Shown piece by piece: positions 35,316 to 62,947 of a stretch of 64,000 bases of DNA. The DNA is taken from the NCBI GenBank assembly GCA_015680685.1, contig MNCI01002682.1:62001-126000 (forward strand), in the 5' to 3' direction. Positions within the stretch are counted from its first letter, which is position 1, and every line of letters begins with the position of its first letter. The notes under the pieces are model-generated. The model was not told the DNA's origin. It made no database searches and saw only the letters and a program-made list of their open reading frames with translations. Source of the DNA: Gnetum montanum (Eukaryota > Plantae > Gnetophyta). Position numbers and translations under genes: made by a program.

Positions 35316-36115
35316 TGATGAGTGATGAGGTATCCCTATGCTCAACCATATGAATATGAGCGTCCATGCACAATCTGGTCGAATTCCAAGGACTAAGTGC
35401 CTATGCGCCTTTGTGGAACAAGAATAAATTGATCAATTGTTGTCTTTCCAAGCTTACTTGTATGTCATGATTGTATGGTTAAGTAAACTTGAGGCATATG
35501 ATTTTTATACTTTTTATGTGTTTTTATGTCTTGCTACTAATAAGGGAGGAGAGAGAGATAGCTGAGTAACTAATTTAATTTGACTACTTATTAACTAGGC
35601 TCTAACTAATCCTAACACTAGTATTTGTTCTCACTTGCTATACACATCCTGAACCAGTGCAACACTACTGGGATTACCAAACGCTAATCATTACTGGGAT
35701 ACCAAGTGGTACACACATGCTCGAAGTGCTTGTACTATGTGTGCTTACATAGGAGAGTTGTAGGGTGAGAGAGAATCATTAATTAACTAAGGAACGCATT
35801 AAGTAACAATAATTAACATTAATTAATCTATTCTGAATGCTGCAAGGTCTATCACAGAGTTCATCTTTATTGCTGTACACAAGGTGTGCTCAAGTACACA
35901 ATGCTCGAATGAAGATCTGTTCACTTTATGACTCCTACTATAGGCACGCAGAAATAATTCTAACTTTGAGAGGAAGAAAAGGCAAGAGTTTGGGTAAGGG
36001 ACTAAGACTAACTATGCAAACCAAGTGCGCTTGCCTCTTATTTATAGGCAATGAGGCAGGTTGTGATATCGCGTGGAAGGTTGCGATATCACGTACGTGA
36101 TATCATGACTCATCA
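35316..36115 (-). repeat. Athila 3' LTR
   Basis: Direct repeat of 42559-43370; tgatgag...ctcatca ends. Confidence 0.9.
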
Positions 36116-41100: not shown

Positions 41101-42100
41101 GACAATGATGTAACAGTGCATAATATCGACCCATGGTAGCATCCAAGGGTTCATGTCCTCCTTGTTTCTAGCCTTGGATTTGCTTTCACAGGTTGGACAC
41201 TCGAGAGTACGTTTGGTACTTATCGTTGAACAATTCTAACATGGTACTCCACCTACGAATGGATTCCGGTTCTAAGGACTGGTACCAACTTTCTGCTTCT
41301 TTGATCAGCATCCATGGGAACAACTTAAGTTTTTGCCATTTACTTTCTATGTTTTGTAAGGCACATGCATCATGAAATGCTTGTAGATGATTTTGAGGAT
41401 CAATGTTGTACCATCCTTCAAATTGTGGGATGTTGTTCATGTCTAATCTCTTGATCCTACTATCTTTTTGGTGCCTTGTTGGGATTTTAATGGCCTCAAT
41501 TATGTCTAGCATACTTCAAGTAGCGAGTAAGGGTTCATCGTGATCGTCTCGTCTGTGGTGTCTATGATGCCTATGTTGTTCCCTACTCTCCCTTCTTTCA
41601 CGGTGTGTTTCTCTGGAGTTCCCTCATCCCCTTTCTTGACTATTTTGTCTATGACTCCTATTTTGCTTACCCTTATCCTCATGGTCTTTTTCTTTGTGAC
41701 TACATCCAGATCTTGAAGGAGAGGGTGAAGAAGATGATGAAGGTGAAGAAGAAGGGGGACCATCACCATGTCAATGCCTACTTCCTTCTCTTCGGTGGTC
41801 GCGGCCTTGATTGCGGTTACAATCGGAATTCCCATCTTCATCATGTGTTCATGTTCATTTTTTAGACCCTTTGTGTCTGTTGGTACTAGAATCTGGGTTA
41901 TGGATAGTTGAGTAAAGATTATGATACACAACCCCTTGATCGAAGTCAATGGGAGGAACATCATTGTGTGGGCGACTGCCTAAGGTAGGTTCACCACCCT
42001 CATTTTCACTTAGGACATGTGGGACGTTCTGCGACAACTTTCCCTTCATGGATTCATGATGTCTCTCCTGTTGCAAATCCCTTTGATGCTGTGCCTCCGT
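38160..42100 (-). pseudogene. Athila gag-protease-RT, disrupted
   Basis: ORF fragments 41186-41512, 39651-40034, 39388-39687 and 38986-39291, plus RT motifs to about 38160. Many stops. Confidence 0.85.
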
Positions 42101-42558
42101 GGGTCAATACTCTCTCGAGTCATGATCATGCATAACGTACTCTGCCTGTGAGTGCTGCATACCAATTCATGTAAGATCACGAAGAAGCATGCTTGGGGCT
42201 AAATGATCGGGAGGTGACACTATGTTACCTTCTAAATATCGCCAACACAACTATTCATCCTGGTGGAAGATAAAGGTAAAGTTTGGTACATATTCATCAG
42301 GATGAACATATACCACATGAAACTATTGAGGGACTGGCAGATTATCATGTGTACTATGCCTCCGATTGTTCCCTGTATCAGACCTAAGTGGTGAAACATT
42401 TTTGTATGAAGAAGAAGCCATGATTGTCTATTCAGTGTGCAATGTATTATTATTTATTATTTTTCTTTAACCAACCCCAAGGGTTCATTCCAACAATGTG
42501 AAAGATTTCCTATGTTCTAGTTAGCACACAAACAACAAAGTCCCCGGCAATGACACCA

Positions 42559-43370
42559 ATGAGTGGTGAAGTATCCCTATGCTCAACCATAAGAATACAA
42601 GCATCCACGCACGATCCGGTTGAATTCCAAGGACTAAGTGCCTATGCGCCTTTGTGGAACAAGAATGGGTTGATCAATTGTTGTCTTCCCAAGCTTACTT
42701 GTATGTCATGATTGTATGGTTAAGTAAACTTGAGGCATATGATTTTTATACTTTTTATGTGTTTTTATGTCCTGCTACTAATAAGGGAGGAGAGAGAGAT
42801 AGCTAAGTAACTAATTTAATTTGACTACTTATTAACTAGGCTCTAACTAATCCTAACACTAGTATCTGTTCTCACTTGTTGTACACATCCTGAACCAGTG
42901 CAACACTACTGGGATTACCAAACGCTAATTGTTACTAGGTTACCAAGTGTTATATGCATGCTCGAAGTGCTCGTACTATGTGTGCTTACTTAGAAGAGTT
43001 GTAGGGTGAGAGAGAATCATTAATTAACTAAGGAAAGCATTAAGTAATAGTAATTAACATTAATTAATCTATTCTGAATGCTGTAAGGTTTATGACAAAG
43101 TTCGTCTTTATTGCCGTACACAAGGTGTGCTGAGGTACACAATGCTTGAATAAAGATTTGTTCACTTTATGACTCCTACTGTAGGCACGTAGAAATAATT
43201 CTAACTCTAAGAAGGAGAAAAGGCAAGAGTTTGGATAAGGGACTACGACTAACTATGCAAACCAAGTGCGCTCGGCTCTTATTTATAGGCAATGAGGTAG
43301 GCTACGATATCATGTATGCGATATTGGATGGAAGGCTGCAATATCGCGTATGTGATATCATAGCTCATCA
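42559..43370 (-). repeat. Athila 5' LTR
   Basis: Direct repeat of 35316-36115, abutting the PBS. Confidence 0.9.
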
Positions 43371-44166
43371 CTTTATTTGTTCTTTATTGTATAGAAAGCC
43401 TTCTAAGCATTTGCAACTTGCTATACTATATAATACTTGCTATAATATATAATACTTTCCCTTATAATTTTGAGAGTGTTTTACTTTCAAATATTATGTA
43501 ACTAGAATCTCAAGTCTTTTGATATTTAGTTGGAAAGTGTAATCTCTCTTCCTAGATTCACAAATTAGCACACTTTTTTTGTCATCATTCATCTTTATTT
43601 TTGTACATTCACAAAATTTTTATAGTTGATGCAACATTGTGTTTAACCTTGTTTTTGAATTTTCTATTAGCGATACATCATTTGTAAAGATTAAAAGTCA
43701 TTTCCATAATTAATCCACTTTAATCCACTCTTCTAGTTCATTAATAAAAATGTTAAAAAAAGTTGGTGAAAGAGGAAAACCTTGTTTTACTCCTATATTA
43801 CTAAAAAACTAATAATATTGTGGAGTTTCTTCATCCTTAAATTCAAAAAGTGTTTTTTTATACATTTTGGATAGTATTAAGTAAACTAGAAACAACTTTA
43901 ATTTTGATGAGTCTACTCCATAATTATTTTCTCATGACAGACTTAAAAGCTTTAGTAAAATCCATGGAGAAAATAAATGTTTTTCTTTATTTGCCTTGTG
44001 CCTTTTTAATATAATATTTGAGAGCAATCAGATGATCTAGTATAGAATGTTTTTTTTTTCTAAATCCTACTTGTGAAATTACATGTGAATTATTTCCTTC
44101 TGCTTTAGATCTTAATTTTTTCTCTAAAATAGTACCTAACAAATTTGCAAACAAATTACTGATCAT
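43371..44166 (-). mobile_element. Old LINE RT segment (host of both LTR insertions)
   Basis: The minus strand reads GFRK...SILDHLIAL, DFTKAF and IGVKQGFPLSPTFFNIFINELEE. Confidence 0.7.
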
Positions 44167-45834
44167 TGAACACCACTAATTTTGGCCTAACACTTTGAAA
44201 CAAGAACAACTCAGAGCCTCTGGAGCTTTTGGGAGGCAAAAATTTGGCTAAGGCATGTAACTCACGCTAAGCTTGTCAAGCCGGGCTTGCCTGAGTGTCA
44301 GCAACTCCAACAACTTCAAGATCAAGTCAAAGATGGTCCAATCTGAGGGTGCAAGTCATCCTCAAGGGTCAATATTGTCCACTTCAAGTTTCAGCATTCG
44401 GGAGTTCAAATTTTGGGCCAAATTGTAGAAATTGTACAAATTTTCTCACTTACGCTGTGGTCACATTGGCAGCATGAGTCCACGTGACCAACTCTAAGAG
44501 CCTCAAAACTGAGTTAAAATGGTTTGATTTCAAAGGTGTAAGTCATCCTCAGGGTTCATTGTTGATAACCTCAAGTCCCAGCATCCAGAATTCTAGATTT
44601 CAGGTCCAAAATTGCAAAGTTTTTGTAGCTCACGCTGGCAACGTGAGTCCAGCATGAGCTACCAAAAGTGGTTCAAAACAAGGCACATCCAAGCTCAGTT
44701 TTTGACTTGCAGATGACTCTTAGGGTCAACCACAGTCAGGCAATTGTTGCATTCAAGAAACAGGCTTCAAAGGAGCAAAAAATTAGTGTGAAATGTGTCA
44801 TTTTTCTTAGGTCACACTGGCAGCATGAGTACAACATGAGTCCAACATGAGTACTGGTCACGCTTGATCAAAAGCATGCCAAACACATGCTGAGGACATG
44901 CCAAGACAAAATCAACTCACGCTGGAAGCTTTGGTGGAATAGAAATGCCTCAAACAGCCACAAAACCACTCAAAGCAACATCCTGCAGTAGTCAATCCAT
45001 GGATCAAGTGAGCTGGAGTAAATTTCTCTTATTGTACACTATCATTTTTGTAAATTTTCACCATTTGTGAGCTTGTTAAGCTCTTACGCTCCAAATTGTA
45101 TCTATGGGCGTAAGCTAGCTTGCGTAAGCTAACACATGTTGTAAGATACAATGCATCCGGTTAAGAACGTAGTTTTCCTATGCATGTCCAATTCACACAT
45201 AGCTATCTATCAAACACATGTCACATGATCCATTTTCCTCTCGTCTCTTAGCCGTTGATTCCATCCATGAATTTCGTACTCGAGCCTAGCCAAACCTTAT
45301 AAATACCCCGTCCATTCACATAAAGGGAGTTGGAAATTTTGAAGGTTGACGGCTTTGGGAGCATTGACTGGCAACTTTGGATGCTCAGGCACACGTGACT
45401 CCTAGCATCCAAGCACTCGTAAACAAATCACTCTAGGGCTTAGCACTTGACTTACCATTCACACACGCAACTACGCTTTGACCGGTGCACATCTTTTTTT
45501 AAGCAATAGAATAAAGTTCATTATTGCCTTCCATTTACATTGTTTGCTCTATTTATGCTTTGTTTACAATATAGTTTTGTATATGCTCTGTTTGTATTTC
45601 ATGCGTCACTGTTTACATTTTGTACGTCATCAGTTATGATAACCCTAGCGCTAGCCATAGCTTACGCTTGGGGAAGTCCTTGGTTGATTTGCATGTAGAC
45701 CATCTAAGGCACTTTGCCTTCATTTCCTTTTCCAACTTGGCCTCACGCAAAGGTAGAGTTGGCTGTGTCTCTTTGACAATCTTTTGACGTTTATTTTCCC
45801 TTTCAGCCTCACATCGACGATTTCGGTCAGTACA
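44167..45834 (+). repeat. Tat 5' LTR
   Basis: tgaacacc...cagtaca; TATA ttataaata at about 45297; direct repeat of 61247-62947. Confidence 0.93.
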
Positions 45835-46449
45835 GTAAATTGGCGCTAGAAGGAGGGCATACCTATTTACTATCCTATCAAAACGTTGATCACACTACCT
45901 TAAACACCATGCAGGCCAGACACTGAACTCAAGTTGAGCTTGCTCAAGCCTAGGTTGCTTAAGTTCACCCTAGTCTGCTCATGCTAAATCAATCAAGCGT
46001 ACAACCCTTCAAATTCTGCAATCATAACCCAAACAGCATACACATGCTGCCTAAACAAGCCACCTCATATATAGCTTGCCAAGTAACGTTCCCATCACCA
46101 CCATTGACTGATGATTGTGAGCTTCTCTCACCACTTACAACTTGCATCTTGCTTGGCTCATGCTTAGCTTACTCACGCTGAGCTTGGTCACTTAGGCTCA
46201 GCTTACTCACACTAATCCCCACCACTCACGCCCAGCTTGACAAGCTTGCTTGCTCATGCTACTATGAAATCTTCCCACATCAACACAACGATGCTGCAAA
46301 TCTCTGACTTTGGGGTCGGGACCTCGAACCCTGTGACTACGACAGAACCCATAACTGCCATTGAAACAATAAACCCTCAAGGGCCAACTCACCAGTCACT
46401 TAGGCTACAGGGTAGGGACCCTACTTATGCGATCCTCACACTGGAATAA

Positions 46450-49400
46450 TGTAATTTCATTTGTGTGAAGATTCAAGCCAAATTACCTATCGATCGCATA
46501 GAAAGAGAGGCAAAGTGAAACTATGAACTCATCTACAAGGGAGGTTGTGAGTTCACTCCCTTAGCATTTCATATAATTCCCCTTTCTGAGCCCCATCATC
46601 GACTCATATCTCAACTTCTCATGGCGAAGAATCAAACTTGATAGCCACCTTTGATAGAGCCTCAGAGCAAAGATAAGGAAGATGACTTTGCGGCCCAAAC
46701 TGATCATGGAGATTCATACCATACTGTTAGTCCTCATGCCCATACAAACCTATCATTCTAACCTTTCTTGGAAGAGACCATACTTCCTCCTTTATTCGCG
46801 AACACTCAGGCATTAGTTTCTCTATAGGAAGTACCCACTGCCATTCCCACCTTCTCCAGGTCCAACATCTAATCTGATACGTCCATCTCCATCATACCTT
46901 CGTGAGTACAATCCCAAAAATCCCCTTCTCAAACTAATGCAGGATCAATTTTTTGACCTCAAGTAATTGGGATGCCATAAGTTATACTAGCTTCCACGGC
47001 CATCCACTACATACCACAAGTACAAACCCATGGAGCACCTCTGATTACTTCAGCCCAACATGTTCAGGGTGTCACCTCACAACCTATGGTTGGGCAGTGG
47101 GTTGCACCAACTGTCCAGCAACACCAACCTACTCACTATAGCATATCACACCTTGCAATCCCATCTTTTAATGTTGCTCCACCACAACAACTAACAATCC
47201 AACAGCCTCCCTTTCCACAAACAATGCAACAGTTGAATTACTATCAATCACAATCCACTCAACCCATCGGTTTGCCTACCTTCCAAGAGTGGGCAGACAC
47301 AAAAAAATGATGCACTCATTAACTGAGGAGTTATAGCATCTTAAAACTGCAAACACTGAGGAAGTCAAGGTGCTGGACTTCTACCAAGATGACCCAATCC
47401 ACCCTTCAGTTCCACCATTAACCTTGCCAAAGGGAATCTCATTACCTCAACTAACCAAGTATAATGGAAAGGGAGATCCAAACACCCATCTGGTAACATT
47501 TATTTAAGCATTTGTTAAATCAAAACTTTATTATTTGAGCGCTTGTACTTTGAGTCAAGCATTCGCACAAATTAAGAACATAGAAGAGGTGATGCAATCA
47601 AGTAATGACCCAGCTTACTTAGCCTTTAAGAGCTAACATATGAGGAAAGATAAGGATAAATCCAAAACGATGGTAGCGGCGGTGGCCGAGACAACCTGAC
47701 CAAACAATTTAGGACAAAGAGGAAAACAACCCACTACTCCAACCAGTCATGAAAGAACCACATCTACACCTACACCTGAATCTTCCTCAATAAAAATCAC
47801 AAACACGGGTCACACTCGTACATTTGAACGAAAAGATCCTACTCAATACACACCCTTGCCTATGAAGCCTTCACAATTGTTAGATCAACTTCTAAAGTTC
47901 GGGTTAATCCAACACAAACAAATGTCCCCCGTGGCATCCCAAAAACATGATCGATTCTGTGAGTTGGCTAAAAACCCAACTTTAGCAATAGCTAATGAAC
48001 CCCCTATTCCAAGAGGCTTTAGGTTGGATAGGTTTTACGAATATCATCAATGGTGTGGGCACGGAATTGCCTACTGTTTCACCTAAAAACAAGAAATACA
48101 GTGCATGATTGACAAGGGTGAAATAGTATTTGACGAGGCAAACTTGGTAAAGCCTCAAAACCAACCCACGGGGGTCTACAAGGATCCTCTCAATACTAAT
48201 GATGCACCATACGTGATCAACACTATCCATGTGGAGAATGGATAAGGCGTCCCTCAAAAACCTTTTGTAATTTGCAGGTCTTCTAAAACTACACCTACCC
48301 CAATGCCTTCCCAAATCCCTTTCATCATACGCACATTCCCTACACCACAAAATCCATTCGTCATCCGTGTACCTCCCTCTGTTGCAATAGCAACCACACC
48401 ATCAGAAAATCGATCCACTCCCTTCATGATCTGGATGCCAAAACACCCTAACATGCAACTCCCTACCATTCCCCCACGACCCCTACGAGAATGCCTTGCT
48501 GACAAGCTGACAAGAGAGCTTCTGGAAAGAGAACATCATGAGTACAAATTAGGACCACCGAAGCCCATACCGCTAAATGCTATTCCTATGGTTCCGCCCA
48601 CCAGTGAGTCTAGCACAAGTCATGAAGACAAGAATACTGGTACTCCCAGTGTCCCAAACTAGTTGCTAACATAAAAATCCCTCCACAAGAGATATGAATG
48701 CTAGGTCAAATGGACGAAGTCTCCACAGACAAAAGAATTCCAAGTGGTAAGGATTTAGCAAGTGCATTGACCCAAGTCACATAGGCTTTGAAACAAAAGA
48801 ACACCTACTTAAGCCTGTATGATCTAGTAATGACTTCATTGGTACATCGAGAAGCTCTCGTGCGTATGTTGACTTTAATTCCTATTAGTGAGGACCTTCC
48901 CACGGATGAGCCGTCCATTTATGCGGTACTGTCCCCATAACCTCAAGAATCAAGGTCCACATCCCTAGAATTTCGTGCCAATGACATTAAGAGAGATGAG
49001 AAAACAGGAGAGGTCACTACAGCCCCTATGTTCATAATAATACAAGTCAACCACTTCAAGATATGTAGGGTGCATGTTGATGACAGTGCAGCAACAAACG
49101 TAATACCCTTTCCTGTAATCGAAAAACTGGGTCTTATAGAGAAAATACGACCCACAACAACATCTTTTTAAAAATCCTTCAATGGTTCCCATGTCATGGT
49201 AAAAGGCATGTTTACCTTGGATTTTGTAGCAAGGGACTAGTTCCCCACATCGGTTGAATTCGTAGTGGTTGATGAAATGCCAGGGTTCAATCTAATTCTA
49301 GGACGACCTTGGCTAGATCAACTTAGAGCCATATCCTCACCAATCCATCAAGAAATCCACCTACCTTATGAGGGCAGTGAAGTTGTCATACACGGGGACA

Positions 49401-49690
49401 CGACAACATCACTCACTTCCATGCACCCAGGAATGGATCAAGGATCAGAGGTTGAGTTCTCTGATCCTAAACAAGAAACCATGAGCACACTTCAAGACAT
49501 GAAGTAACCATTAACTCGTGATCCTACTAAAACTAAGGAAGCACTGGACGACATCAACATAGGAGCCATTCCCATTGACGTCTCTTGGTCAGAACTACCT
49601 TTTAGCATCTCCAGTGAAGGGGAAGGGAAGTATAAGATCATACCTACATGTCCTACCCCTCACATCAAAGCACGAAAAATAAAAAGATGA
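46450..49690 (+). pseudogene. Tat gag-protease, disrupted
   Basis: KYNGKGDPNTHL gag motif (about 47460), degenerate C-x2-H-x4-H-x4-C knuckle (YEYHQWCGHGIAYC), protease RVHVDDSAATNVIP and FNLILGRPWL. Confidence 0.8.
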
Positions 49691-49715
49691 CTCAATAGCT
49701 AGAGCAAACTTCACT

Positions 49716-49965
49716 AGCGTTCGGAATGACATTAAACTACCAACCGTCTAGTATGACGTTAAACTGCTAGCGAATGTCTGCAATGACATTAAACTAGCCA
49801 CGATCAGAAATGGCCAGTTTCTTTTGAGTTCCCCAAAACTGTTATCGCTTTTGGCCCACTATGGCCTAAAACTAGTAATCCCTCATTCTTTTCTTTCAAC
49901 ACAAATACAAGTCCACCATGACTTTAAACTGATGTGCACAGCCCGAAATGGCCTTAAACTAGAGC
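49716..49965 (+). ncRNA. Array A of predicted pseudoknot units (about 6)
   Basis: Repeated nGTC/GCC-stem-A-Y-GAC/GGC-NN-TAAAC-T-stem' units with complementary, variable stems. Confidence 0.55.
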
Positions 49966-50368
49966 TTAGTAAGTCGCAAGTTTACAAACTTTCATTACGT
50001 TATGTCAAATTTTCATTTACATGTCATAAGTTATAATTTCAATTAGTGCATTCTTGTTACTTTTTCCTTTTACAAATATTTGCCTTACGTTTCGTTCTAC
50101 ATTTTGAAATCTCATTTTACGTTCAGCTACATGCATATGTTCACAATATACCTAAGAAAACAAGAAAAACAACGAAAAAAAATAAAATGAGAAAACATAT
50201 AAAAATAAATAAATCTTGAACGCCAATATGGTAATAGAATTCCAACACATTATGCCATGATTAGATCCATATCATTATATCTATCCATCATATATTTCCA
50301 TTAAACATCCAAAAATCCAAAACATTTAATAACTAAAGCCGGATTAACAGTTAGCTCATGCATTAGTA

Positions 50369-53300
50369 CTAGGAGGCGGGCTGGCCTCCAAAATCCTCCT
50401 CACCATTCACTCTCGCTCCACTGGGGCTAGCCTCATCATTACTAGGTCCCTATAATAGAACAAAAAAGAAAAAATAGGTAAGCATAACAAAACAACTCAT
50501 AAATACAAAACTCGAAAGAAAAAGTAACACTAACACTAAAAACAACAAAACCATACAAAAGTAAGCACCATAATAAAATACTCACAGGAGAAGAAGGCCT
50601 TAGGCTAGCTTCCAAGCGCCGTAGAATCTCCTCCTTGGGCACATTTGCCAAATCCTCCTCTAGGCCAAGATCAATACCAACCAAGGTTTTACCCTTGTCC
50701 ACTGAGGTCCAGGTAGGGTGCTCAAGAGAGAACATGCTTATCGAAGCCTCCCCGGAGGCGGTGGTAATGGTTCTCTCAGGAGATCCCTCTACTTTAGTGC
50801 ACTTGACGAACCTATTGTAAGCAAGACGCAAGGCTAGTCCATCAATAAAAATTTCCATCTGGCGATGTTCAACTGATTCCTCCTTTAACCACTTCTTGTA
50901 CTGGTGCTTGTGATCCTTTTGATCTTGACCCCACTTCCGTACTTTAGTAGCAAAGGATTTCCAATCATGACATTTCCTGTTTAGCAAATCCATATGTGCC
51001 CTTTGTTCTGCTAAATAGTGTGTCACCTGTACTTTGCTGTTCAAAACTGTCCAGTAATGTGCATAGGTGATCCCAGATGTGCGCCAAGTACTATCACTAG
51101 ACAGCCTAGTAGTAGCAAAATCATAACGGGATTGAAGGTCCCTCTTCTCCTCTTGCTCCTTGGCAATGTTTCCTTCAATGAGTGCACCTCATCCCATAGG
51201 TACTCAACTGAATGCCTACAAGTCCAAAGCGACTTAGCGTTTTGTATGACACAACCGGAAACTGCGTCGTAAACCTTTCTAGGGACTTGTTCAATATTCC
51301 TTGGCAATTCAAGGAGGGCATTAATATGAGTAGCCTCAGAAGGATCCCATTGAAGTTTGGCGCCTGCAAGTATGAGTACCGCACACATGAATCAGCTGTA
51401 ATTAACAATGAACACAAAGAAACACAATAAACGCAGACACTTAGCATAATACATAATGTATACATACCTAGTTCTGGATGAGCTTGTTCTAGGCAAGTGA
51501 CTTTATCATTAACGATGCTCGTGACAAAGTCCATTTTGTTGGGCATTTTAGGCCATGGCCTCAGCTGGTCAGTAGTTATTGGATAAGCATGGGAAGTCAC
51601 CTCAACTGAGGCCTGTGCCCCTGACACCTTTGCCCAGGATGTATGTGCCTCAGAAACCTCAGCATCTACCTATGGTGCTAGAAATAATCAAGATAATCAA
51701 AAACAACACATAAAAGTTAAAGGGTACAAAATATGGATCAAGCTAAAAGGAACATACCAAAAAGCCCTTTGCTGGTTAGTTTGGGATGATCACCAAGGTG
51801 CAAGGACCCATCGAGAAAACCATTGAATACACCCCTCTCATTGCTTGAATGCCTAAGTTCATCCAAAGCCTCAATGAGCTTTGATCCCATGATGCTTGTT
51901 ACATTTTCTTCTTGCGAGACAGGGGGTTTCTTGATTGCTTCTTCCCCCTCTTTTTCTTCTTCTTTTGGCCCTGTAATGATCACTTTTGGTTCAACCATCG
52001 GGGCCAAGGCTTCTCTTTCCCTCTCAAGGCTTTTCTTCGATAATACCAGTATTTTGATGTTAGCATGACATAGTACATACATTTAATAAACATATAAATT
52101 AAAATGAAAAAATAAAATATATAAAAATAAAATAAAATACTTACCATCCATTGGCAATACAAAGTGAATCCTCTTCGCTCTTGGTGGTCTCACCTCAGGA
52201 GCAGGCTCCCTTGGGCATTTAGCTCTCTTCACCTTCGCCTTAGATCTCCCAACAGTCTCATGAATTAGACATTCAGCTCTCCTAGGAGATGTATGCAGTC
52301 TAGGTGGTTCCAATCCCAAGCTATCATGGGAATGATGGGAACGACTAGCTGCACCCCCAGTAGTAATGGACACTGACTCATCAATGCCTTAAGGTGGGTC
52401 CTGAGATCTAGTAGTACTAAAAAAATGGTGAATCTAGGGGCGAGATAGCTATGAGTGATCCCTCAATATATAACGGCTATCACCATAAAGTACTAAAAAC
52501 TCAACAAATCTACGTAGGTAACCTGCGAAGAAGGCAAATGTGAAATGGGACTTGGTGCTAGTGTTCGAGCGTAATCTAACGATCTCTTCACGAAAGCCAG
52601 ACCCAATAAATTGTGTCCAATTATAACACATGCCTATCTCTAGGACTGCACGTATGGTACGTGCAAACTCAATCCCAAGGTTTCTTCCTTGAGAAAGAGA
52701 TTTAGGAAATGCTTATGCTTGAAAGAGAGGGTACAAGAAGTTCACCTCCATTGATTGAGTATCATCTTGCATGGCAAAAACTTTGGGACCCCAAGACACA
52801 CCTAACCAATCTTCAAGCTCCTTTATGATTTGGCTTTCTTTAGTCACTTTATCTACTGCCACTCTGGTGTCATCCATAGGCATGCCAAAGAGATTGGAAA
52901 GGAACTCAGCAGTCAGGTGAAAAGACACCTTGACTCCTCGAACCCGCGTAGTGAAATGAGAAGCATCATTGCTAAAATAATCAACAATGGTAACCATTTC
53001 AGTAGCCAAGATATTAGAAGTCAGAGCAGTGAACAAGTCCATCAAACCCGTATGGGTAAGACGGCTGATGATTAACTCAGAAGCCTTCGTTTGCAACCAT
53101 TTTTGTGATTGTTCTGTCTCTCCATACTTCATGAAAAGAGTGGCTTGAGTACGCCTTGATACGAAAGTAACTTCATCATAAGAGATGACTGTTGTAGAAA
53201 AAACATAGAGCGAAATGTTAAAAACATAGTACACGATAATGCAACAAAGAGAAAATGTAGTCTAGAATGTGATCATTTACCATCAGTAAATGGTGTAGGT

Positions 53301-54590
53301 GGATTAGGTACAAGATCAATTCTCTGAGGAAAAATTGGCCCATTGGAGGACCAATCCTCATGCAACCAACCATGAACTTGAAAATGTTCAAAAGCCGTTG
53401 AGAATTGCCTATTGTAGTCAACAATAGCACCTCTTGTTTGGTCTAGTACCGTAGCATGAAGAGTGGGGTCCACCATGAATGCCTCCAATGCTGTGCATGC
53501 TAAGGCAAGCCCACTGTCATCATCACGCATCACATTCTCATTGAAACAAGGCTTGCATAAAAGAATAATTTTTATGCATAGACAACGATATAATTTTAGA
53601 AGAATTGAAAATCAAGCAAAGCACAAAAGAGCATACCTGTCCACTTTATACACTGTCCTAGGTGGGTTTTGGAACAACGTGTGAACATGAAAAGCTAGAA
53701 AAAGTGTGTTATTGCTGCTATAATGGCTACAGATAGGCAGTTCCCATACATGAGTCAAAGGATGAGTAGACCTAGGACCCTTAGGAGGGCCTCCCTCAAT
53801 TGTAAAAAATCCCTCGTCTATGTTAGTAATGAAGGCAAGCATGTCTTGTGTAGATCCAGGCAACATTGTTTCAACCATATCACGGGCCAATTGTTCACTT
53901 AAATGAGACCATATAACTACGCTGAAACTTTGTAAAATGAATGACAAAAATGCACCAACACTAGGATGGAACCATATCACATGAGGCCCAATATGCATGT
54001 CATAAGGAGGTATGTCTGGTCCAAAGGGTCCAAACCAAGCAAGCACACCAACGAGCTCAACCACAAGGAGGGAAGGTTTAGGTCCCCTGCATATAGCCAA
54101 AACTTTAGATAAGTAAAGGGTTTGAGTGCTCAACATAACATGTAACTACATAAACCAAACACATATATAATATTTAATATATAGTTCTACCCATGGGACA
54201 AGGACACGAATATTTATTTGGTGTATTCAATGCTTACTAGGGTACATCGAAATCTCTTACACAAGTAACATAAAATGAACACGCAAGTATAAAACCATGA
54301 ACATTCATAGATTCGACATAAACATAGAAACGTGGAAACATATTTAAAATCATCTATCCAAACAAGAAAACAATAAACAGTGTATACATAAGCTCCAACA
54401 AAAAGTAAAGATTTCAGCAAACAATTCACACCTTTGCATTTTTACACAGGCTAGGCACGCTCACATTACCAGCAAATACACCAAGCTTTGACACATAAAA
54501 CTCACTAAAAATCAATTGCTGCTTTCTCTTAAACGTAAAAGACCTAGCTCACCTCACGGCAGACACTGAACTTCAAAGCTCTCCCCATGG
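50369..54590 (-). pseudogene. Antisense multi-exon accessory gene of the Tat element: dead FCP1/NIF (HAD) domain + plant-transposon-protein-like domain + charged helical C-terminus
   Basis: Minus-strand ORF blocks 54129-53637, about 53552-53280, 53188-52145, about 52037-51758, about 51677-51468, about 51396-51125, about 51037-50586 and 50450-50369. They are bounded mostly by GT/AG with T-rich introns. A few stops fit methyl-C decay. Confidence 0.7.
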
Positions 54591-56077
54591 TCGATTGATT
54601 TTCCTGACACTCAAAACTTGGCAAAAACTAGGATCGTTGTGGCCCGTATATAGGACAGTCAAAGAAAAATTGATAACAAAAAAAAAAAGAGAAGAAGAGG
54701 AAGCTCGACGAAAGAAAACGCCGCATATGAGAAGCCCACGTTGTGTGCTCACGTTGTGTGCTCACGTTGGGCGTACCCTGCAACAATACGCCCTGGAACA
54801 TGCCTTGGGAAACTCATGCCCTAGAGCTCACACTGGGCGTGCCCTAGTCGGGAAAACACAGACTTTCATTAGCCCCTGTGGTTGCATGTAGTGCGCGTTG
54901 GCAATGAGTTCATCGTGGTATTTGCCCTCAACGCAAGATATTTTCGCAAGTGCAACATTCAAGCAGTTGCAGCAAGATCACAAAAGCAAGGCTCTTAAGC
55001 AGCTGAGTTGAAGTAAACTGACCAGAAATTACAGATTGATCGAGAAAATATCAAATTGCTGCCATCAGAACAATGGCTGTGAACGATTCCCCCTAAGCTA
55101 ACTCATGTTGTGATCTTCCCTGGGCACTCATGCCTTGGAAACTCATGCCCTGGAACTCACGCTAGAGCCTTCCCTGGCACTCACGCTACACCTACCCTGG
55201 TTTGAAAAATGAAAAAGAAACCTAACTCGCCCTAATTTGACCATGCACGCCTGAAAGATGACAAAAATACAGCAAGGCATAAACCCCAGTACAAGCCCTG
55301 ATGTCCCAAAACACGGTAGAAAAACCCAAAATCGCACTAAGAAAACAACATAAAATGATGTCCATGAGAGACCATGTTGCCCTAGCTAACACTATGCACA
55401 AAATACTGGAAAGAAACAAGAAGAAATGGACCTACGTAGAGCTCCATCCCATGCTGGAATTCTGGCTTGAGGGAGATGCTGAAGTAGCTCTTCACTCTCC
55501 TCCACGAACGCCAGATTTGCTTGCCTCTTCTCTTTGCCTCAGCTTGCTTTTGCTTTGCTCTTCATTACTGGTCCTATAACTTATGCTGCAACTCATGCCA
55601 ACGCTCATGCTACACTCTCTAGCTTTCTCACGCTACAATCCAAATTCCCAAGAGCTCACGCTAGCATAAATGACACCCCTTTACCTCAAAATCGCCTTTT
55701 TAACTCCCATCTTCATTTCCATTTTGTTTATTTATTTTATTTAGTAATTTATCATGTTTCAGGATTAACTTTTCCTTTCATATTATTATTTACATCATCT
55801 TTATTTCATTCTTACATAGTATTCCTCATTATTTCATTCTTTGGAGATAAAGTCAAAATGTTAAAGATGGCAAAAATAAAATAGAGGGGGGAAGAGAGAA
55901 AGGTTAAAATCAAAATGAAATGATGAAAAAAATATAGATATATATAAATATATAGAAAAATATATATAGTGGCATGCATAAAAATCCATAAGACTATAAA
56001 ATCCCATAAACTTGTTGTTCGCATGAAACATAGAAATTAACAATATTCTGTACACTCATTCATAACACTGAATATTA

Positions 56078-56135
56078 CCAGCCCGGTATGGCCTAAAACT
56101 GCCATGTGGTCCAGGTATGACACTAAACTACCACT
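56078..56135 (+). ncRNA. Array B of predicted pseudoknot units (2) upstream of pol
   Basis: agccc-ggta-t-ggcc-taaaac-tgcc and ggtcc-aggta-t-gaca-ctaaac-tacc. Confidence 0.5.
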
Positions 56136-56256
56136 ATGATCCTCAATTTAGTTAGTACATATATTAATTACCTGATGCTCGTTTGCATTTAACAATTCCC
56201 TCGTCAAGCCAATGTCACTCACTTCGCTCCTAGTTTAAATTGGCAGGAGCGAGCAC

Positions 56257-59200
56257 ATGGCCACTAAGAATATCTTTTCAACATTGTCTCTCAGTGGACC
56301 ACATGGAGAAGTAAAAAGAGTAATGAAGATAGAATCCTTGGATCTAGACCCATATGCTTACACTAATTTAATGGCCTCCATTCAGGAAACGTCATATTGG
56401 TCTAAAAATGTGGCTAAGATTTTAGATCTAGAGGCCGATAATATTACTGAAGATCCTCTCATTGAAGTCCCCATTATTACATCCAATGATGAAACTAAAA
56501 CATTGAAATTAAGTGCTCTACTAGACTCACAACTTGTCAGTGACATCACTCAAGTACTAAAAGATGATATAAAAATATTTGCATGGTCATATACCGACAT
56601 GCCAGGGTTGGACCCTCGAATCGTCCAACATAACATTATCCTTGATGAAAAAGTCAAACCCGTGAAGCAAAAGGTATGAAAGGTTAGACCTAAAGTGGCA
56701 TTAGCAGTCCGCAATGAAATCACAAAGCTCTACCAAGTCGGTTTCATCCGAGCCGTTGACTATTCCGATTAGGTATCAAACATTGTCGTAGTCCCTAAGA
56801 AGAACGGTAGTATACACATATGCATTGACTTTCATGATCTTAACATAGCCACTATCAAGGATGACTTCCTGCTACCTAGTATCAATCAACTTATTGACAC
56901 AACTGCTGGGCACACTCTATTATCCTTTATGGATGGATTTTCAGGATATAATCAAATAAGAATCAACCTAGAACATCAACTCAGGACAACCTTTATGACA
57001 CCTTGGGGCACATTCTGATATACAATGATGTCGTTTGGTCTTAAAAATGTAGGCGCTACATATCAACAAGCAATGACATATATATTTAGCGATTACATGC
57101 TCAATTTGCTCAATGATTATGTTGATGACATTGCGGTTAACTCCAAAACAACCGAACAACATGCAAAAGATCTAGACTTAGTGCTTAAACGTTGTCTCAA
57201 ACATGACCTCAGACTCAATCCAAAGAAGTGTGTCTTTGGTGTCAAAACAGGCAAATTGCTTGGCTTCATAATCTCTAACAAAGGGATACGAGTAGACCCT
57301 GATAAGGTTAAGGCAATAACTAACATGCAACCACCAAAAAACTTTACCAAACTACGTGGTCTACAAGGTAGGTTACAATTCATTAGACACTTTATTGCAA
57401 ATCTGACAGATAGGTTGAGACCCATGCAACACCTACTATGAAAGAATGTGCATTTCCAATGGACTCAACAATGCCAGGAAGCATTTGAGGACATAAAGCA
57501 AGAGTTGGCTCAAATCTCGACGGTTTATCCCCCACAAAGCGATAAACCCTTCTACATCTACCTTGCGACCTCCGATTCTTCCATTGCATCGATGCTTTGC
57601 GAAAAACATGAAGATGGAATCGAGATTCCTATATATTACTTAAGCCATGCTCTAATCACCTATGAAAAATGATACAATGACGTGGAGAGATCATGCCTTG
57701 ACCTTGTGTTCTCCTTGAAGAAATGGTGGCATTATCTCTTCCGTAATCAAGTCTACATCATTTGCAAGAATAATGTGCTCCGTGCCATCAATAGCAACAT
57801 CTACGAGTCAAGTAGGATAGCCAAATGGAAAGCAATGATTGCAAAGTTTGACCTACACTATGTTGCTCAATCCTCCACAAAAGGTCAAGTAATTGTCACA
57901 CAATTGACCGTCTCGCCAATGCATGATCAAGGAACGATTAACCCTGAATTCCATGATGAGAATGTTAACAGTATAGACACCGTACCTGATAACTATGAGG
58001 TGATCCTTTATTTTGATGGAGCTTCAACTTTCCAAGGAGGAAGTTTTGTGGCCATTTTAGCATACCCCTCTGGAGAAATTCGAACCTTCGCCTACTAATT
58101 GATCTTTCCTTGTACCAATAAAATGGCAGAATACGAAGGTCTTCTTAGAGGTCTTCAAGCAGCATTGACTTCGGGAATCGCACATCTTGTAGTTTGAGGC
58201 AATTCACAGTTAGTCATTAATCAAGTCACAGAAGTTTATGCATGCAAGGCTCTCCATTTGCAACCATATTGTGATTTGACCAAATATTTGCTGAAGCAAT
58301 TAGTAGACGTGGATATACAACATGTCCCTAGAAGCGAAAATCCCGTTGCTGATGCACTCGCTACATTAGCCCTAAACATGACACCTGAAATGTTCTATGT
58401 GTTGCCCAGCTCTATAACAGATTATGCCAAACCTATAACCGACGCTCTCGATGAAATGACCATAGCATTCGTTAGCACAACACATGAAATAAAATGGTAC
58501 GATGACATAAAAGAGTACCTTCTACAAGGCAAACCTCCACAACATTTAACAAACGTTCAAAAGGATGCAGTGCAAAAATGCTCTTGGCAATATGCATTAA
58601 TAGGAGACACATTGTGTCGCAGATCCTATGAAGGCATTCTGTTGATGTGCGTTAGTAGCATCGACAGTCAAACAATTGTAGAACAAGTCCACGAAGGACT
58701 TTGTGGAAGGCACATAGCATCCAAAGCAATGGCAACAAAGATTAGGCATTTGGGCTACTACTGGCCACACGTGGAGTACGATTGCTTCTCCAGGGTCAGG
58801 ACATGTGACATTTGCCAAAGGCACGGTAACCTAATACATGTGCCACCTAATGAATAGCACACAACACAAATCACATGGCCATTCCAAAGATGGGGATTAG
58901 ACTTAATTGGACCGATAACGCCGCCATCTTCCGCAGGGCATATCTTCATTATCACTACAATTGAATACTTCACAAAATGGGTAAAAGCTATTCCCCTCAG
59001 GAAGACCACCTCTAAACATGTTTGTACTTTCATAATAGGAAACATCATGACCTGTTTTGGTATTTTGATGACCATCGTTACCGATAATGGGCCACAGTTC
59101 AGCAGTGTGGATACTAAGAGCTTCTATGAAATCCTGGGTATTAAACATGCATTCTCGTCACCTTACTACTCATAGAGCAATGGTCAAGCGGAGGATACAA

Positions 59201-59717
59201 ACAAAATTGTCATCATAGTGCTTAAAAAGATGCTAAATCAGAGCAAGAGGCGATGGCACGAATAACTAGTTTATGCATTTTGGGCATACAAAACGACACA
59301 TCGAACATCTATAGGTAAAACTCCATATAATCTTGTATACGGATTTGAAGCTATAGGTAAAACTCGTTGTGGATAGTTCTCTCAGGGCTCCTCGATGAAA
59401 GCCAAAGTGATGAACTGCACATTGCTGACCTTGACTCGGTGGAGGAGGAACGTGTGCGAACGCTTGATCAGATTGAGTGGTACCAGAAACAACAATGGCA
59501 ACGACATAAACACGATCTGCAAAAACACTCGATTAAGGAAGGAGACCTAGTCCTTAAGGGCATCTGTGAACATCCAGACAAATTCTTAGCTAACTGGAAA
59601 GGACCTTACTTAGTCACCAAGGCGTACAATAACGGAGCATTCAAATTTGCTGACATGGACAGGAATGAGTTCGCTAATCCTACAAATCACCTGTACCTGA
59701 AATGATACTATGTCTGA
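56257..59717 (+). pseudogene. Tat pol: RT - RNase H - archaeal-type RNase H - integrase, disrupted
   Basis: FAWSYTDMPGLDP; SFMDGFSGYNQI; YVDDI; LNPKKCVFGV..GKLLGFII; aRH LYFDGAS...AEYEGL..GL...SQLVINQV...HVPRSENPVADALA; integrase HEGLCG.H...GYYWP...C..CQ, WGLDLIGP, IVTDNGPQF. Confidence 0.93.
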
Positions 59718-59734
59718 TGAACTTGAGGTATGTA

Positions 59735-60066
59735 ATGGTCCTGGCATCACAACCTAAAACTGATACCATAGAACGGTCCTAGGGCTATGACTTGAAACTG
59801 GCACCACAGAGTGTCCTAGAGTCATGACGGTAAACTGACACCATAGAGCTCCATCTGGTATAACACTAAACTACCACATTTGTTGGCCATGACGTAAAAC
59901 TAGCATGCAGAGTCCACTAAGAATATAAATTGGTTTGCCTCTTCACAGTCCGCTATGACTATAAACTAGCACTGCACCATCTGCTACGATGCTAAACTAG
60001 CATCGTCCAAAGGGTTATGATGTGAAACTAACCTGCAACAGTATGCTAAGACTATAAACTGGTGAC
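59735..60066 (+). ncRNA. Array C of predicted pseudoknot units (about 10) immediately after the integrase stop
   Basis: Ten units, about 30-37 nt apart, with a conserved A-YGACNNTAAAC-T core, variable complementary flanks and an upstream GTC-like strand. Confidence 0.6.
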
Positions 60067-61246
60067 ATCATCAATGACCAGGCAATACTTGAAAAGATAT
60101 GTTGCGGCTATTGGCTGTATGTGTTTCACAAAGACTTGCTGCATAATGGACCCTGATGAAGCTGATGCTATTCATGATCCTATCTGCTTTGAAATTGCAG
60201 ACGGTGGCTCTATCTCCTTGGTTATTTTCAAGTTAAGGTGCTTAGTTAATCGAATCATTTGTGGTTTTCTTGTCCTCTTGGAGTTGTGTTTACAGGATGA
60301 CACACCCGAGGCATTCGTGCATAGATGCACTTCATCATGATGACAAGGTATCACATTCCTCTTGATGCACACAATTGGGTTAATCAATCCATTCATAAGT
60401 ACATTCTTGACTCTTGATACATTCCGTATTCCCCATCATGTTCCCCTTATCTCATTCAATTATACCCCCTTGATAAATTTGACTCACCCCAAAGCTCTTG
60501 GTACACTATTGCATACTATGATTCTCTAAGTAATTGCAACGCAAAACACAGTACATAGTACATGATACAAATGCAAACGCATGAGCATGAGTATAGCATT
60601 GAAAGCAAGCTCTTCCAAAAAGAACAAAAAAACAAGAAGAAAAGAAAAACAAAAAGAAAAGAAAAGCAAACAAAAAGAAAAAGAATAAAAAGATCAAACA
60701 ACAAAATGCACAGAAAAGGTCTTCATGACCCCGTGGACATCATAGACCAAAGACCATTTGCTCTTCTCATATAAGCCCTAGGTAGGAAGGCAATCGTCTT
60801 AGAAAGAAAGTTACACTCGTGTCTCAAAAGGTCATGTTGCACATCATCGCGTGGCTTTGGCTATTTATAATGGTCCCCCGTAAACACTCTACAAGTGTCC
60901 CATTTCTCCAAAGAACAAACATTTTATGTCTTAGTTCCGAGTCTGCTAAACACTGGCTATTGACAAGGATAAAAAATATGGCTCATTCACAGGAGAGCAT
61001 TCCTCTCCCATAATTCCAATAGTAATTATAATCCTTGATTAACTCCTGATTTCCCCCTAGTTACAACCAATCCCCTTGCATATTGAACTACATTTTCCCA
61101 TTCCCATGTACTTTTGAACATGGCGTGATGACATCCAGCCAAGGGTCGACGGATAATGCTTGTTACTTGGTTGGTCATGGTGTTTTGTACTTCTTTGTCA
61201 ATGCCTCTCAGGTGGATTCCTCCAAACGTCAACAAAGAAGGGCTAA

Positions 61247-62947
61247 TGAACACCACTAATTTTGGCCTAACACTTTGAAACAAGAACAACTCAAAGCCTC
61301 TTGAGCTTTTGGGAGGCAAAAATTTGGCTAAGGCATGTAACTCACTTTGAGCTTGTCAAGCTGGGCTTGCCCTCAGCCTCAGCAACTCCAACAACTTCAA
61401 GATCAAGTCAAAGATGGTCCAATCTAAGGGTGCAAGTCATCCTCAAGGATCACTGTTGTCCACTTCAAGTTTCAGCATTCGGGAGTTCAAATTTTGGGCC
61501 AAATTATAGAAATTGTACAAATTTTCTCACTTACGCTGTGGTCACGCTGGTAGTGTGAGTCCAGTGTGACCAACTCTGAGAGCCTCAAAACCAAGTCGAA
61601 ATGGTTTGATTTCAAAGGTGCAAGTCATGCTGAAGGTTCATTGTTGACAACCTCAAGTCCCAGCGTCTAGAATTCTAGATTTCAGGTCCAAAATTGCAAA
61701 TTTTTTGTAGCTCATGCTGTGGTCACGCTGAGCCCACACTGGTAGCATGAGTCCAACATGAGCTACCAAAAGTGATTTAAAACAAGGCACATCCAAGCTT
61801 AATTTTTGACTTGTAGATCACTCTCGGGGTTAACCACAGTCAGGCAATTTTTGCATTCAAGAAACAGGCTTCAAAGGAGCAAAAATTGGTGTGAAATGTG
61901 TCATTTTTCTCAGGTCATGCTGAGGTCAGTTTGGCAGTGTGAGTACAGCGTGAATCCAACGTGAGTATTGGTCACACCCGGTCAAAAGCATGCCAAACAC
62001 ATGCTGAGGACACACCAAGACAAAATCAATTCACATTAGAAGCTTTGGTGGAATAGAAATGCCTCAAACAGCCACAAAACCACTCAAATCAACATCTTGT
62101 AATAGTCAATCCATGGATCAAGCGAGTCAGAGTCAATTTCTCTTGTTGTACACTATCATTTTTGTAAATTTTCACCATTTGTGAGCTTGTCAAGCTCTTA
62201 CACTCCAAATTGTATCTGTGGGCGTAAGCTAGCTTGCATAAGCTAACACATGTTGTAAGATGCAGTGCATCTGGTGAAGAATGTAGCTTGCCTATGCATG
62301 TCCAATTCACACACAGCTGTCTATCAAACACATGTCACATGATCCATTTTCCTCTCATCTCTTAGCCATTGATTCCATCCATTAATTCCGTGACCGAGCC
62401 TAGCCAAACCTTATAAATACCCTGTCCATTCACATAAAGGGGGTTCACAATTTTGAAGGTTGATGGCTTTGGAAGCATTGATTGGAAACTTTGGACGCTC
62501 AGGCACACGTGACTCCTAGCATCCAAGCACCCATAAACAAATCACTTCGGGGCTTAACGCTTGATTTTCCATTCACACACACAACTACGCTTTGACTGGT
62601 GCACATATTTTTTAAGCAATAGAATATAGTTCATTATTACCTTCCATTTACATTGTTTGATTTGTTTATGCTTTGTTTACAATACAGTTTTGTATATGCT
62701 CTATTTGTATTTCGTGCGTCACTGTTTATATTTTGTACATCATCAATTATGATAACCCTAGCACTAGCCATAGCTTACACTCAGGGAAGTCCTTGGTTGA
62801 TTTGCATGCAGACCATCCAAGGCACTCTGCCTTCGTTTCCTTTTCCAGCTTGCCCTCATGCGAAGGCAGGGTCAGCTGTGTCTCTTCGACAATCTTTCGA
62901 TGTTTGTTTTCCCTTCCTGCCTCACATTGACGATTTTGGTCAGTAAA
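61247..62947 (+). repeat. Tat 3' LTR
   Basis: Direct repeat of 44167-45834; terminal CA mutated to AA; followed by TSD ATCAT. Confidence 0.93.

What the first reader, a model, noticed from the sequence alone, without database searches (positions are those of the whole stretch)
49716..49965. Second pseudoknot array directly after the gag-protease stop
Seen: about 6 units of the same architecture start about 30 nt after gag-PR ends (about 49690). Examples are AATGTC-tgcaa-t-GACATT-aaac-tagc (49773-49798), AAGTC-cacca-t-GACTT-taaac-tgatg and GGCC-cacta-t-GGCC-taaaac-tagt. The GTC/GAC to GCC/GGC double change is a clean compensatory substitution. Inference: the motif is placed after each sense-strand stop codon, suggesting a role in handling long 3'UTRs (NMD/XRN4 escape, termination or re-initiation) rather than being a random satellite seed.
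Basis: partly seen in the sequence, partly recalled or inferred. Interest (0 to 1): 0.8.

Follow-up and report, generated by a model that had tools for sequence, protein, structure and literature searches.

The report
Viral nuclease-shield motif in plant retrotransposon
Just behind a gene of a large plant jumping element lie six short repeats that match a known plant-virus RNA motif and are predicted to fold into tiny knots, which likely stop the cell's RNA-degrading enzyme there, as the motif does in viruses.

Summary
The array is real. Six units (hairpin GYC-loop-GRC, then NNN-AAACU) start 29 nt after a gag-protease-frame stop in a decayed 18.8-kb Ogre-like LTR retrotransposon. Two more sense-strand arrays lie before RT and behind the integrase stop. 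The unit matches the coremin motif (xrRNA-C), an Xrn1/XRN4-resistant RNA of plant and other RNA viruses. Three of six units meet its published YGNNAD loop rule; two are 20/22 identical to units in RNA-virus contigs. The other three break that rule but pair loop with downstream bases, and this pseudoknot stem covaries across the element (41/54 pairs, 24 expected). Two intact chromovirus retrotransposons from metagenomes carry canonical units 11-15 nt after the pol stop; 14 others picked by RT carry none. Best reading: an exoribonuclease block at ORF ends, inferred and untested; RNA reads were uninformative. Ten paper searches found no coremin in retrotransposons. The scan had noted coremin-like motifs in giant viruses and phages and a flavivirus-type xrRNA in animal retroelements, but not this.

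The parts
44167..45834 (+). 5' LTR of the host element
   Evidence: 88.7% identical to 61247-62945 over 1701 nt; 5-bp target-site duplication ATCAT flanks the element
45841..45856 (+). Primer-binding site (TGGCGCTAGAAGGAGG); tRNA-Arg type is recalled, not tested
   Evidence: sequence right after the 5' LTR
46500..49690 (+). Decayed gag-protease region (start approximate; many stops and frameshifts); frame ends at TGA 49688-49690, earlier stop at 49505-49507
   Evidence: three-frame translation, gag and protease motifs read by eye; the two short protease fragments scanned gave no Pfam hit
49719..49740 (+). Unit A1, canonical coremin type: loop CGGAAU (meets YGNNAD), spacer AAACUAC; loop-closing pair U-G
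   Evidence: 19/22 identical to the nearest virus-contig unit
49746..49770 (+). Unit A2, Watson-Crick-extended type: loop UAGUAU pairs 5 of 5 with the bases from U of AAACU onwards; lacks G at loop position 2
49776..49797 (+). Unit A3, canonical type: loop UGCAAU (meets YGNNAD); followed by a candidate second hairpin at 49797-49814 (4 bp, -2.4 kcal/mol)
   Evidence: top score of the virus-trained matrix, 29.1 bits; 20/22 identical to a unit of L008
49854..49878 (+). Unit A5, extended type: GCC/GGC stem, loop CACUAU pairs 4 of 5
49911..49935 (+). Unit A6, extended type: loop CACCAU pairs 4 of 5
49941..49962 (+). Unit A7, canonical type: GCC/GGC stem, loop CGAAAU (a loop shown Xrn1-resistant in PMC10520033)
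   Evidence: 20/22 identical to a unit of L013
50442..54145 (-). Antisense ORF remnants between arrays A and B; the stretch laid (to 52000) is present family-wide
   Evidence: four ORFs of 164-248 aa; no Pfam family above cut-off; DNA contig depth in the thousands over 50000-52000
56081..56133 (+). Array B: two units upstream of the RT frame, not behind a sense stop
56257..59718 (+). Decayed RT-RH-aRH-integrase region; stop at 59716-59718 taken as the end by eye from the C-terminal motif
   Evidence: Pfam RVT_1, RVT_3, Integrase_H2C2; RH similarity to L088
59738..60064 (+). Array C: ten units starting 20 nt after the integrase stop, mostly extended type, loops of 6-11 nt
61247..62947 (+). 3' LTR

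Best explanation
[quoted passage not shown] Shown: the units, their strand, their place 29 nt behind a gag-protease-frame stop, their match to the published motif and the covariation of both stems. From the literature: this motif stalls Xrn1 one base upstream of the first hairpin, makes a subgenomic RNA with plant XRN4, and slows scanning ribosomes. Inferred: the units sit at the first ribosome-free position behind an ORF; when the upstream part of the RNA is decapped or cut and degraded, the enzyme would stop at the array and the downstream RNA would persist; tandem copies would back each other up. Half of the units replace the non-canonical loop-spacer contact of the viral motif by 4-6 ordinary pairs. 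This copy is old (LTRs 88.7% identical), so some units here may no longer work.
For: Published motif GUCCGAAGACGUUAAACUAC with YGNNAD hexaloop variants; GCC/GGC stem tolerated and spacer A16-A20 essential; plant XRN4 makes ncRNA3 in yeast. Three of six units of array A meet YGNNAD; 6 of 6 keep AAACU and the penultimate loop A (AAACU was the search anchor, the loop A was not). A tandem pattern from the window returned 17 IMG/VR loci, 15 of them RNA-virus-like (7 of 7 ORFs scanned hit RdRP, coat or viral methyltransferase families); 13 of 14 arrays in 13 non-redundant contigs start within 60 nt of a long-ORF stop. A matrix trained on 28 virus units ranks 12 units of the three arrays as the top 12 sites of the window; four score 22.9-29.1 bits, above the best of 100 shuffled windows (21.2). 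Second-stem covariation: 41 of 54 Watson-Crick pairs against 24.0 expected, 0 of 20000 permutations; array A alone 11 of 18 against 6.3, 56 of 20000; slid registers 14-23 of 54 against 47; same picture. The invariant loop-A/U19 pair (13 of 13) is the register proposed by mutagenesis for the viral motif. Two intact chromoviruses only 35% alike in pol carry two canonical units each, 11 and 15 nt after the pol stop.
Against: No functional test exists for any retrotransposon unit. Three of six units have A at loop position 2, and such loops failed to stall Xrn1 in the BNYVV context, though there without a complementary partner. The required second hairpin is found behind only 1 of 6 units of array A by a simple test that also finds it for just 8 of 28 virus units and 17% of random sites: inconclusive. 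Ordinary frameshift pseudoknots of this size do not resist Xrn1, so a covarying knot alone does not prove resistance. No pile-up of RNA 5' ends at the units was listed for two RNA runs, which were thin and came from other copies. 0 of 14 RT-picked Ty3 elements carry the motif behind pol. Array B follows no stop. The virus comparison is partly circular, since the virus units were fetched with a window-derived pattern. Units within an array are related by duplication, so the permutation values overstate independence. Of all 136 arrays scored, 68 lay in loci with a long same-strand ORF and only 17 started within 60 nt of its stop; most of the rest are in decayed repeats without intact ORFs.
Confidence: 0.62

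Rival explanations
1. Translation-level insulator: the knots mainly block post-termination 40S scanning or re-initiation, or UPF1 movement, so that the long region behind gag-protease neither triggers NMD nor is translated. Not exclusive with the best reading.
For: xrRNA-C slows scanning ribosomes about five-fold in reticulocyte lysate, with similar results in wheat germ. Position right after stops. The RNA stability element behind the Rous sarcoma virus gag stop is a recalled analogue.
Against: No direct data. In the source paper ribosome stalling is a property of the same fold that stalls Xrn1. No UPF1 or NMD link to this motif was met in the papers read.
Confidence: 0.14
2. Other structured cis signal of the element: packaging or dimerisation site, splice regulator at the two ends of an Ogre-type intron, or binding site for an element-encoded protein; the likeness to coremin would be convergent on a stable mini-pseudoknot.
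For: Arrays A and B bracket the gag-PR/RT spacer, which is an intron in pea and Medicago Ogre. A weak candidate donor at 49630 and acceptors at 56246 and 56294 share a phase. The extended units depart from the viral loop rule.
Against: Does not explain the canonical units, near-identical to viral ones, array C, or the two chromoviruses with units after pol. No loose end at the candidate donor was listed, but protease-region RNA depth was too low to test.
Confidence: 0.13
3. Neutral tandem repeat: a short sequence, perhaps once captured from an RNA virus, amplified by template switching in the hypervariable non-coding regions of Tat elements.
For: Tandem arrays next to pol are common in Retand and Ogre, family-specific and of unknown function. 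Metagenome loci show the unit expanded up to about 20 times or dispersed in decayed repeats. Patchy distribution.
Against: Units are diverged in loop and linker yet keep paired stems by two-sided changes (20 cells against 8.3 shuffled). Linkers are unrelated and Tandem Repeats Finder does not call array A. One strand only; same position behind stops in unrelated elements.
Confidence: 0.08
4. Recoding signal (-1 frameshift or stop readthrough) joining gag-protease to pol.
For: xrRNA-C and xrRNA-WCC stimulate -1 frameshifting in vitro behind a slippery site.
Against: The array lies behind the stop, 6.5 kb and many stops away from RT; no slippery heptamer by eye just before the first unit; arrays behind the last ORF have nothing to recode into.
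Confidence: 0.03

Closest known systems
Coremin motif / xrRNA-C, hexaloop variant (BNYVV, cucumo-, umbra-, enamo-, hypo-, chrysoviruses; PMC6546385, PMC10520033, PMC5869530)
   Same: 3-4 bp hairpin GUC/GAC (GCC/GGC tolerated), YGNNAD loop in 3 of 6 units, spacer NNN-AAACU(A), tandem copies, sense strand, just behind stop codons or between ORFs.
   Different: Host is an LTR retrotransposon in a plant genome, not an RNA virus. 6-10 units per array rather than 1-4. Half the units have A at loop position 2 and a 4-6 bp Watson-Crick second stem that canonical virus units lack (12 of 96 pairs, 11.7 expected). Second hairpin unclear. Resistance untested.
xrRNA-WCC, Watson-Crick coremin variant (PMC10321173)
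   Same: Same first stem and A-rich spacer; loop pairs antiparallel with the bases behind AAA; the 7-19 pair has the same register.
   Different: xrRNA-WCC needs G at the first loop position and a G8-C18 pair; the units here start the loop mostly with a pyrimidine, end it mostly with U opposite C18, and pair further downstream.
Tandem repeat arrays next to pol in Ogre/Retand (Tat) elements (PMC11963269, PMC7004042)
   Same: Arrays of short units in the non-coding parts of a Tat element, next to pol.
   Different: Those are described as family-specific sequence repeats of unknown function, with no structure noted in the passages read; these units are diverged, covarying and shared with viruses and other retrotransposon lineages.
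Luteoviral frameshift pseudoknot (BWYV type; as discussed in PMC10321173) and tobamovirus upstream pseudoknot domain (recalled)
   Same: Small H-type knot with an A-rich loop crossing stem 1; in tobamoviruses, tandem knots right behind a stop (recalled).
   Different: BWYV-type knots lie in coding regions and do not resist Xrn1. No Rfam family matched 44000-64000 at E<=5.

Membership tests
xrRNA-C (coremin) | First hairpin of 3-5 bp with pyrimidine-purine closing pair | tested here: met
   6 of 6 units of array A (five C-G, one U-G); stem pair U-A/C-G covaries, 13 of 13 paired
xrRNA-C (coremin) | Loop YGAD or YGNNAD | tested here: inconclusive
   Met by 3 of 6 units of array A (49719, 49776, 49941); not met by 3 of 6, which have A at position 2
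xrRNA-C (coremin) | Spacer core A16-A20 (AACUA) | tested here: inconclusive
   AAACU in 6 of 6 (search anchor); A20 in 4 of 6, G in the two where it pairs with a loop pyrimidine
xrRNA-C (coremin) | Second hairpin directly behind the spacer | tested here: inconclusive
   Found at <= -1 kcal/mol for 1 of 6 units of array A, 8 of 28 virus units, 17% of random sites; in tandem arrays the next unit may serve
xrRNA-C (coremin) | Sense strand, untranslated or intergenic position, often just behind a stop | tested here: met
   Arrays A and C 29 and 20 nt behind stops, B intergenic; 8 of 8 strict hits on +
xrRNA-C (coremin) | Stalls Xrn1/XRN4 in vitro | not testable with these tools
   needs a digestion assay
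xrRNA-C (coremin) | Subgenomic RNA with 5' end one base before the hairpin in vivo | tested here: inconclusive
   Two RNA runs, 775 and 245 reads laid, mostly under 95% alike, not 5'-phosphate libraries; one pile of 9 molecules at 49939 with first mate on the minus strand, whose end type is ambiguous
xrRNA-WCC | G at loop position 1 and G8-C18 pair | tested here: not met
   Loops of array A start with C or U and end with U
H-type pseudoknot | Loop pairs with downstream bases, with covariation | tested here: met
   41 of 54 against 24.0; 4 of 5 second-stem pairs change on both sides; weak in the canonical units
Ogre (Tat) LTR retrotransposon | aRH between RH and integrase | tested here: met
   RH, then RVT_3, then Integrase_H2C2; rule from PMC6317226; shared with Retand
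Ogre (Tat) LTR retrotransposon | gag-PR and RT-RH-INT in separate ORFs, spacer spliced | tested here: inconclusive
   Separate ORFs yes, but the spacer is 6.5 kb against about 274 bp on average; candidate splice sites only
Ogre (Tat) LTR retrotransposon | Placement in the RT tree | not tested

The most novel reading that the evidence does not exclude
Plant and fungal LTR retrotransposons use viral-type Xrn-resistant RNAs at their ORF borders to cut their own genomic RNA into stable subgenomic RNAs: a non-coding 3' RNA behind pol (a retrotransposon counterpart of viral ncRNA3/sfRNA, possibly a silencing decoy) and, in this element, RNAs starting behind gag-protease and in front of RT. The Watson-Crick-extended units are a new natural xrRNA-C subtype whose covariation fixes the register of the unsolved coremin pseudoknot, and some 'function unknown' repeat arrays of Tat elements are amplified xrRNAs.
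Probability: 0.35. Interest if true: 0.88.

Novelty: new variant of a known kind. Interest (0 to 1): 0.72.

Why it matters
In the papers read, coremin xrRNAs are described from RNA viruses only. Finding the motif behind stop codons in a high-copy plant Tat element and in two chromoviruses would extend programmed exoribonuclease resistance to nuclear-genome retrotransposons. It gives a cheap, direct test (Xrn1 digest, degradome in xrn4) for an open question, the function of repeat arrays beside pol in Ogre and Retand elements. The natural covariation in the extended units also supplies the base-pair evidence for the coremin pseudoknot, whose structure the source papers call unresolved.

Tried and rejected
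No whole genome is held for this window, so no family-wide map in the host. Rfam on 44000-64000 at E<=5: 0 matches. Tandem Repeats Finder does not call array A. Global folding of 49691-49990 is not more stable than shuffles (z -0.73); the signal is in local motifs. Scans of viral contigs with the window's aRH/integrase and RT fragments found no Tat-like relative (the one locus is a weak phage match). No plant Tat element other than this one was recovered among the 71 metagenome loci. No RNA holder listed for the stretch. Reads were laid only on 46000-52000, so arrays B and C and a gag-PR to RT splice joint were not examined. The Retand paper's sequence supplement could not be read (too large) and would bear on how general the motif is in plant Tat elements; the Ogre splicing paper PMC2596294 is not held. 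The protein atlas gave only weak unnamed plant clusters for one antisense ORF. Frameshift and readthrough roles were rejected on position. Paper searches for a prior report; none listed a paper placing coremin or xrRNA-C in a retrotransposon (listings only; subscription journals are mostly not held).

Full report
Context. The finding lies inside an LTR retrotransposon spanning 44167-62947: LTRs 88.7% identical over 1701 nt, a 5-bp target-site duplication and a primer site behind the 5' LTR. The coding regions are decayed. Gag-protease ends near 49690. RT, RH, aRH and integrase run from about 56257 to 59718. An aRH between RH and integrase marks Ogre and Retand, and a split between gag-PR and RT marks Ogre (PMC6317226, passages), so I call the element Ogre-like; no tree was built. 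Antisense ORF remnants fill the 6-kb spacer. The family is high-copy in DNA runs of organisms A and B.

Observation. The quoted units are present as written. The unit is G-Y-C, a loop of mostly six bases, G-R-C, three variable bases, then AAACT. Six units start at 49719-49941, two at 56081 and 56109, and ten at 59738-60041. A strict pattern finds 8 hits, all on the + strand inside the element, against 0 in 100 shuffles. Array A starts 29 nt after the TGA at 49688-49690 and array C 20 nt after the integrase stop; array B follows no sense ORF. An earlier stop in the protease frame (49505-49507) leaves the native end of gag-PR uncertain.

Structure. I anchored units on AAA(C/T)T, dropped 2 of 20 anchors that lacked the hairpin arm, and counted pairs between the loop and the bases behind AAAC. 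At the three variable positions 41 of 54 are Watson-Crick pairs against 24.0 when partners are permuted (0 of 20000); array A alone gives 11 of 18 against 6.3 (56 of 20000); slid registers give 14-23 against 47 with G-U allowed. On the 13 hexaloop units, 81% of cells pair, 7 of 9 pairs change on both sides, and the penultimate loop A with U19 is invariant. The units are related by duplication, so these values overstate independence. The region as a whole is not unusually stable (z -0.73) and matches no Rfam family.

Identity of the unit. I recalled the plant-virus coremin motif and checked it in print. PMC10520033 (parts 1-4 of 6 read, figures not seen) gives GUCCGAAGACGUUAAACUAC, shows hexaloops such as CGAAAU and CGCAAU resist Xrn1, derives the rule YGNNAD, reports that loops with A at position 2 fail in the BNYVV context, and shows stalling of scanning ribosomes. 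PMC6546385 (parts 1-3 of 4) shows the GCC/GGC stem works, A16-A20 are essential, a second hairpin is needed, and tandem copies occur. PMC10321173 (parts 1-4 of 6) places loop base 7 against U19, describes a Watson-Crick variant that needs G5 and G8-C18, and shows ordinary frameshift knots do not resist Xrn1. PMC5869530 (passages) shows plant XRN4 makes the viral ncRNA3 in yeast. Units 49719, 49776 and 49941 meet YGNNAD; 49746, 49854 and 49911 do not, but pair 4-5 of 5 in the second stem. Array A is thus a mix of canonical units and an extended type that is neither xrRNA-C by the loop rule nor xrRNA-WCC.

Relatives. A two-unit pattern gave 17 IMG/VR loci. Fifteen look like RNA viruses (7 of 7 ORFs scanned hit RNA-virus families) and carry 2-4 canonical units; 13 of 14 arrays in 13 non-redundant contigs begin within 60 nt of a long-ORF stop. 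Their units show no Watson-Crick second stem (12 of 96, 11.7 expected). Units A3 and A7 are 20 of 22 identical to virus units. A matrix from 28 virus units puts 12 array units at the top of the window, four above the best shuffled score; this is partly circular because the virus units were found with a window-derived pattern. The same pattern gave 71 distinct metagenome loci. Five of them represent two intact Ty3/gypsy chromoviruses (for L088 Pfam protease, RT, RH, integrase and chromodomain; for the L063 fragment integrase and chromodomain), 35% alike in pol, each with two canonical units 11 or 15 nt after the pol stop. Thirty-five loci fall in two clusters of decayed repeats with many units; 4 of them have pol remnants, one on the opposite strand. 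Over all 136 arrays scored, 68 lay in loci with a long same-strand ORF and 17 began within 60 nt of its stop. As an unbiased control, 14 Ty3 elements fetched by RT alone, mostly related to one another, had no unit behind pol. No other plant Tat element could be fetched, so generality in plants rests on this element and its in-species copies.

Reads. Two RNA runs and two DNA contig sets were laid on 46000-52000. RNA reads cover the array in both runs but come from other copies (most under 95% alike). No 5'-end pile-up at the units was listed; a pile of 9 molecules at 49939 has its first mate on the minus strand and cannot be read as a 5' end with confidence. These are not 5'-phosphate libraries, so the result is no evidence either way.

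Mechanism. Shown: motif, strand, position, covariation, sharing with viruses and chromoviruses. Established for the viral motif: Xrn1/XRN4 stalling and ribosome slowing. Inferred: the element uses the units as a 5'-3' decay barrier at ORF borders, leaving stable downstream RNA (0.62). Rivals are a translation or NMD insulator (0.14), another cis signal such as packaging or splice control (0.13), a neutral repeat (0.08) and recoding (0.03). What the protected RNA does is open; a silencing decoy, as for viral ncRNA3, is a guess.

Novelty. Ten searches (listings) showed no paper placing coremin in retrotransposons; the coremin papers listed had zero occurrences of the word, as did the xrRNA structure paper PMC12397905 (abstract and passages). 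A 2025 review of plant LTR elements mentions Xrn1 only for yeast Ty elements and granules (PMC12786077, passages). Retand arrays are called of unknown function (PMC11963269, passages; sequence supplement unreadable), and Ogre arrays are treated as satellite seeds (PMC7004042, one passage). Earlier notes of this scan (unchecked) report coremin-like motifs in giant viruses and phages, a flavivirus-type xrRNA in animal retroelements and other folds behind fungal pol stops; two of them pointed me to the name xrRNA-WCC. Verdict: a real feature, a new variant of a known kind in a new class of host, function untested. Interest 0.72.

Noticed in passing
window 49966-56080: About 6 kb of antisense ORF remnants with intron-like gaps sit between gag-protease and RT. 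The Retand paper read here places antisense ORFs behind pol instead. Arrays A and B may be two halves of one array split by this module.
   Followed up: partly
window 49969-49974: A perfect GTAAGT donor-like site lies right behind the last unit of array A; with acceptors near 56246-56294 it could remove the antisense module. About a 1 in 5 chance occurrence by a rough estimate.
   Followed up: partly
L035:complement, oriented 3674-4390: The intact chromovirus L035 has a 238-codon antisense ORF directly behind its two units, echoing the window's layout.
   Followed up: no
L003 and L004 (one 73-kb contig), oriented 4924-6050 in L003: A dsDNA-phage-like contig carries an extended unit plus a canonical CGAAAU unit, duplicated about 1 kb apart between genes.
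   Followed up: no
L027 cluster (25 loci) and L022 cluster (10 loci): Decayed repeat DNA with up to about 20 units per locus; strong second-stem covariation in a largely overlapping hand-picked group (237 of 372 against 170 expected); 4 of these loci have pol remnants, in L069 on the strand opposite to the units.
   Followed up: partly
window 49618-49818, runs X1, X5, X14, X17: DNA contig depth over the array is about four times that of neighbouring bins, and joints and loose ends show other copies with units in different order and further canonical units; the poly(A) run holds array-bearing RNA from another locus.
   Followed up: partly
window 35318-43370: A second LTR element (about 800-nt LTRs, 90% identical) with no coremin-like unit on either strand.
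   Followed up: partly
window 10334-10521 and 24353-24951: Three near-perfect 62-nt repeats and a 300-nt tandem duplication.
   Followed up: no
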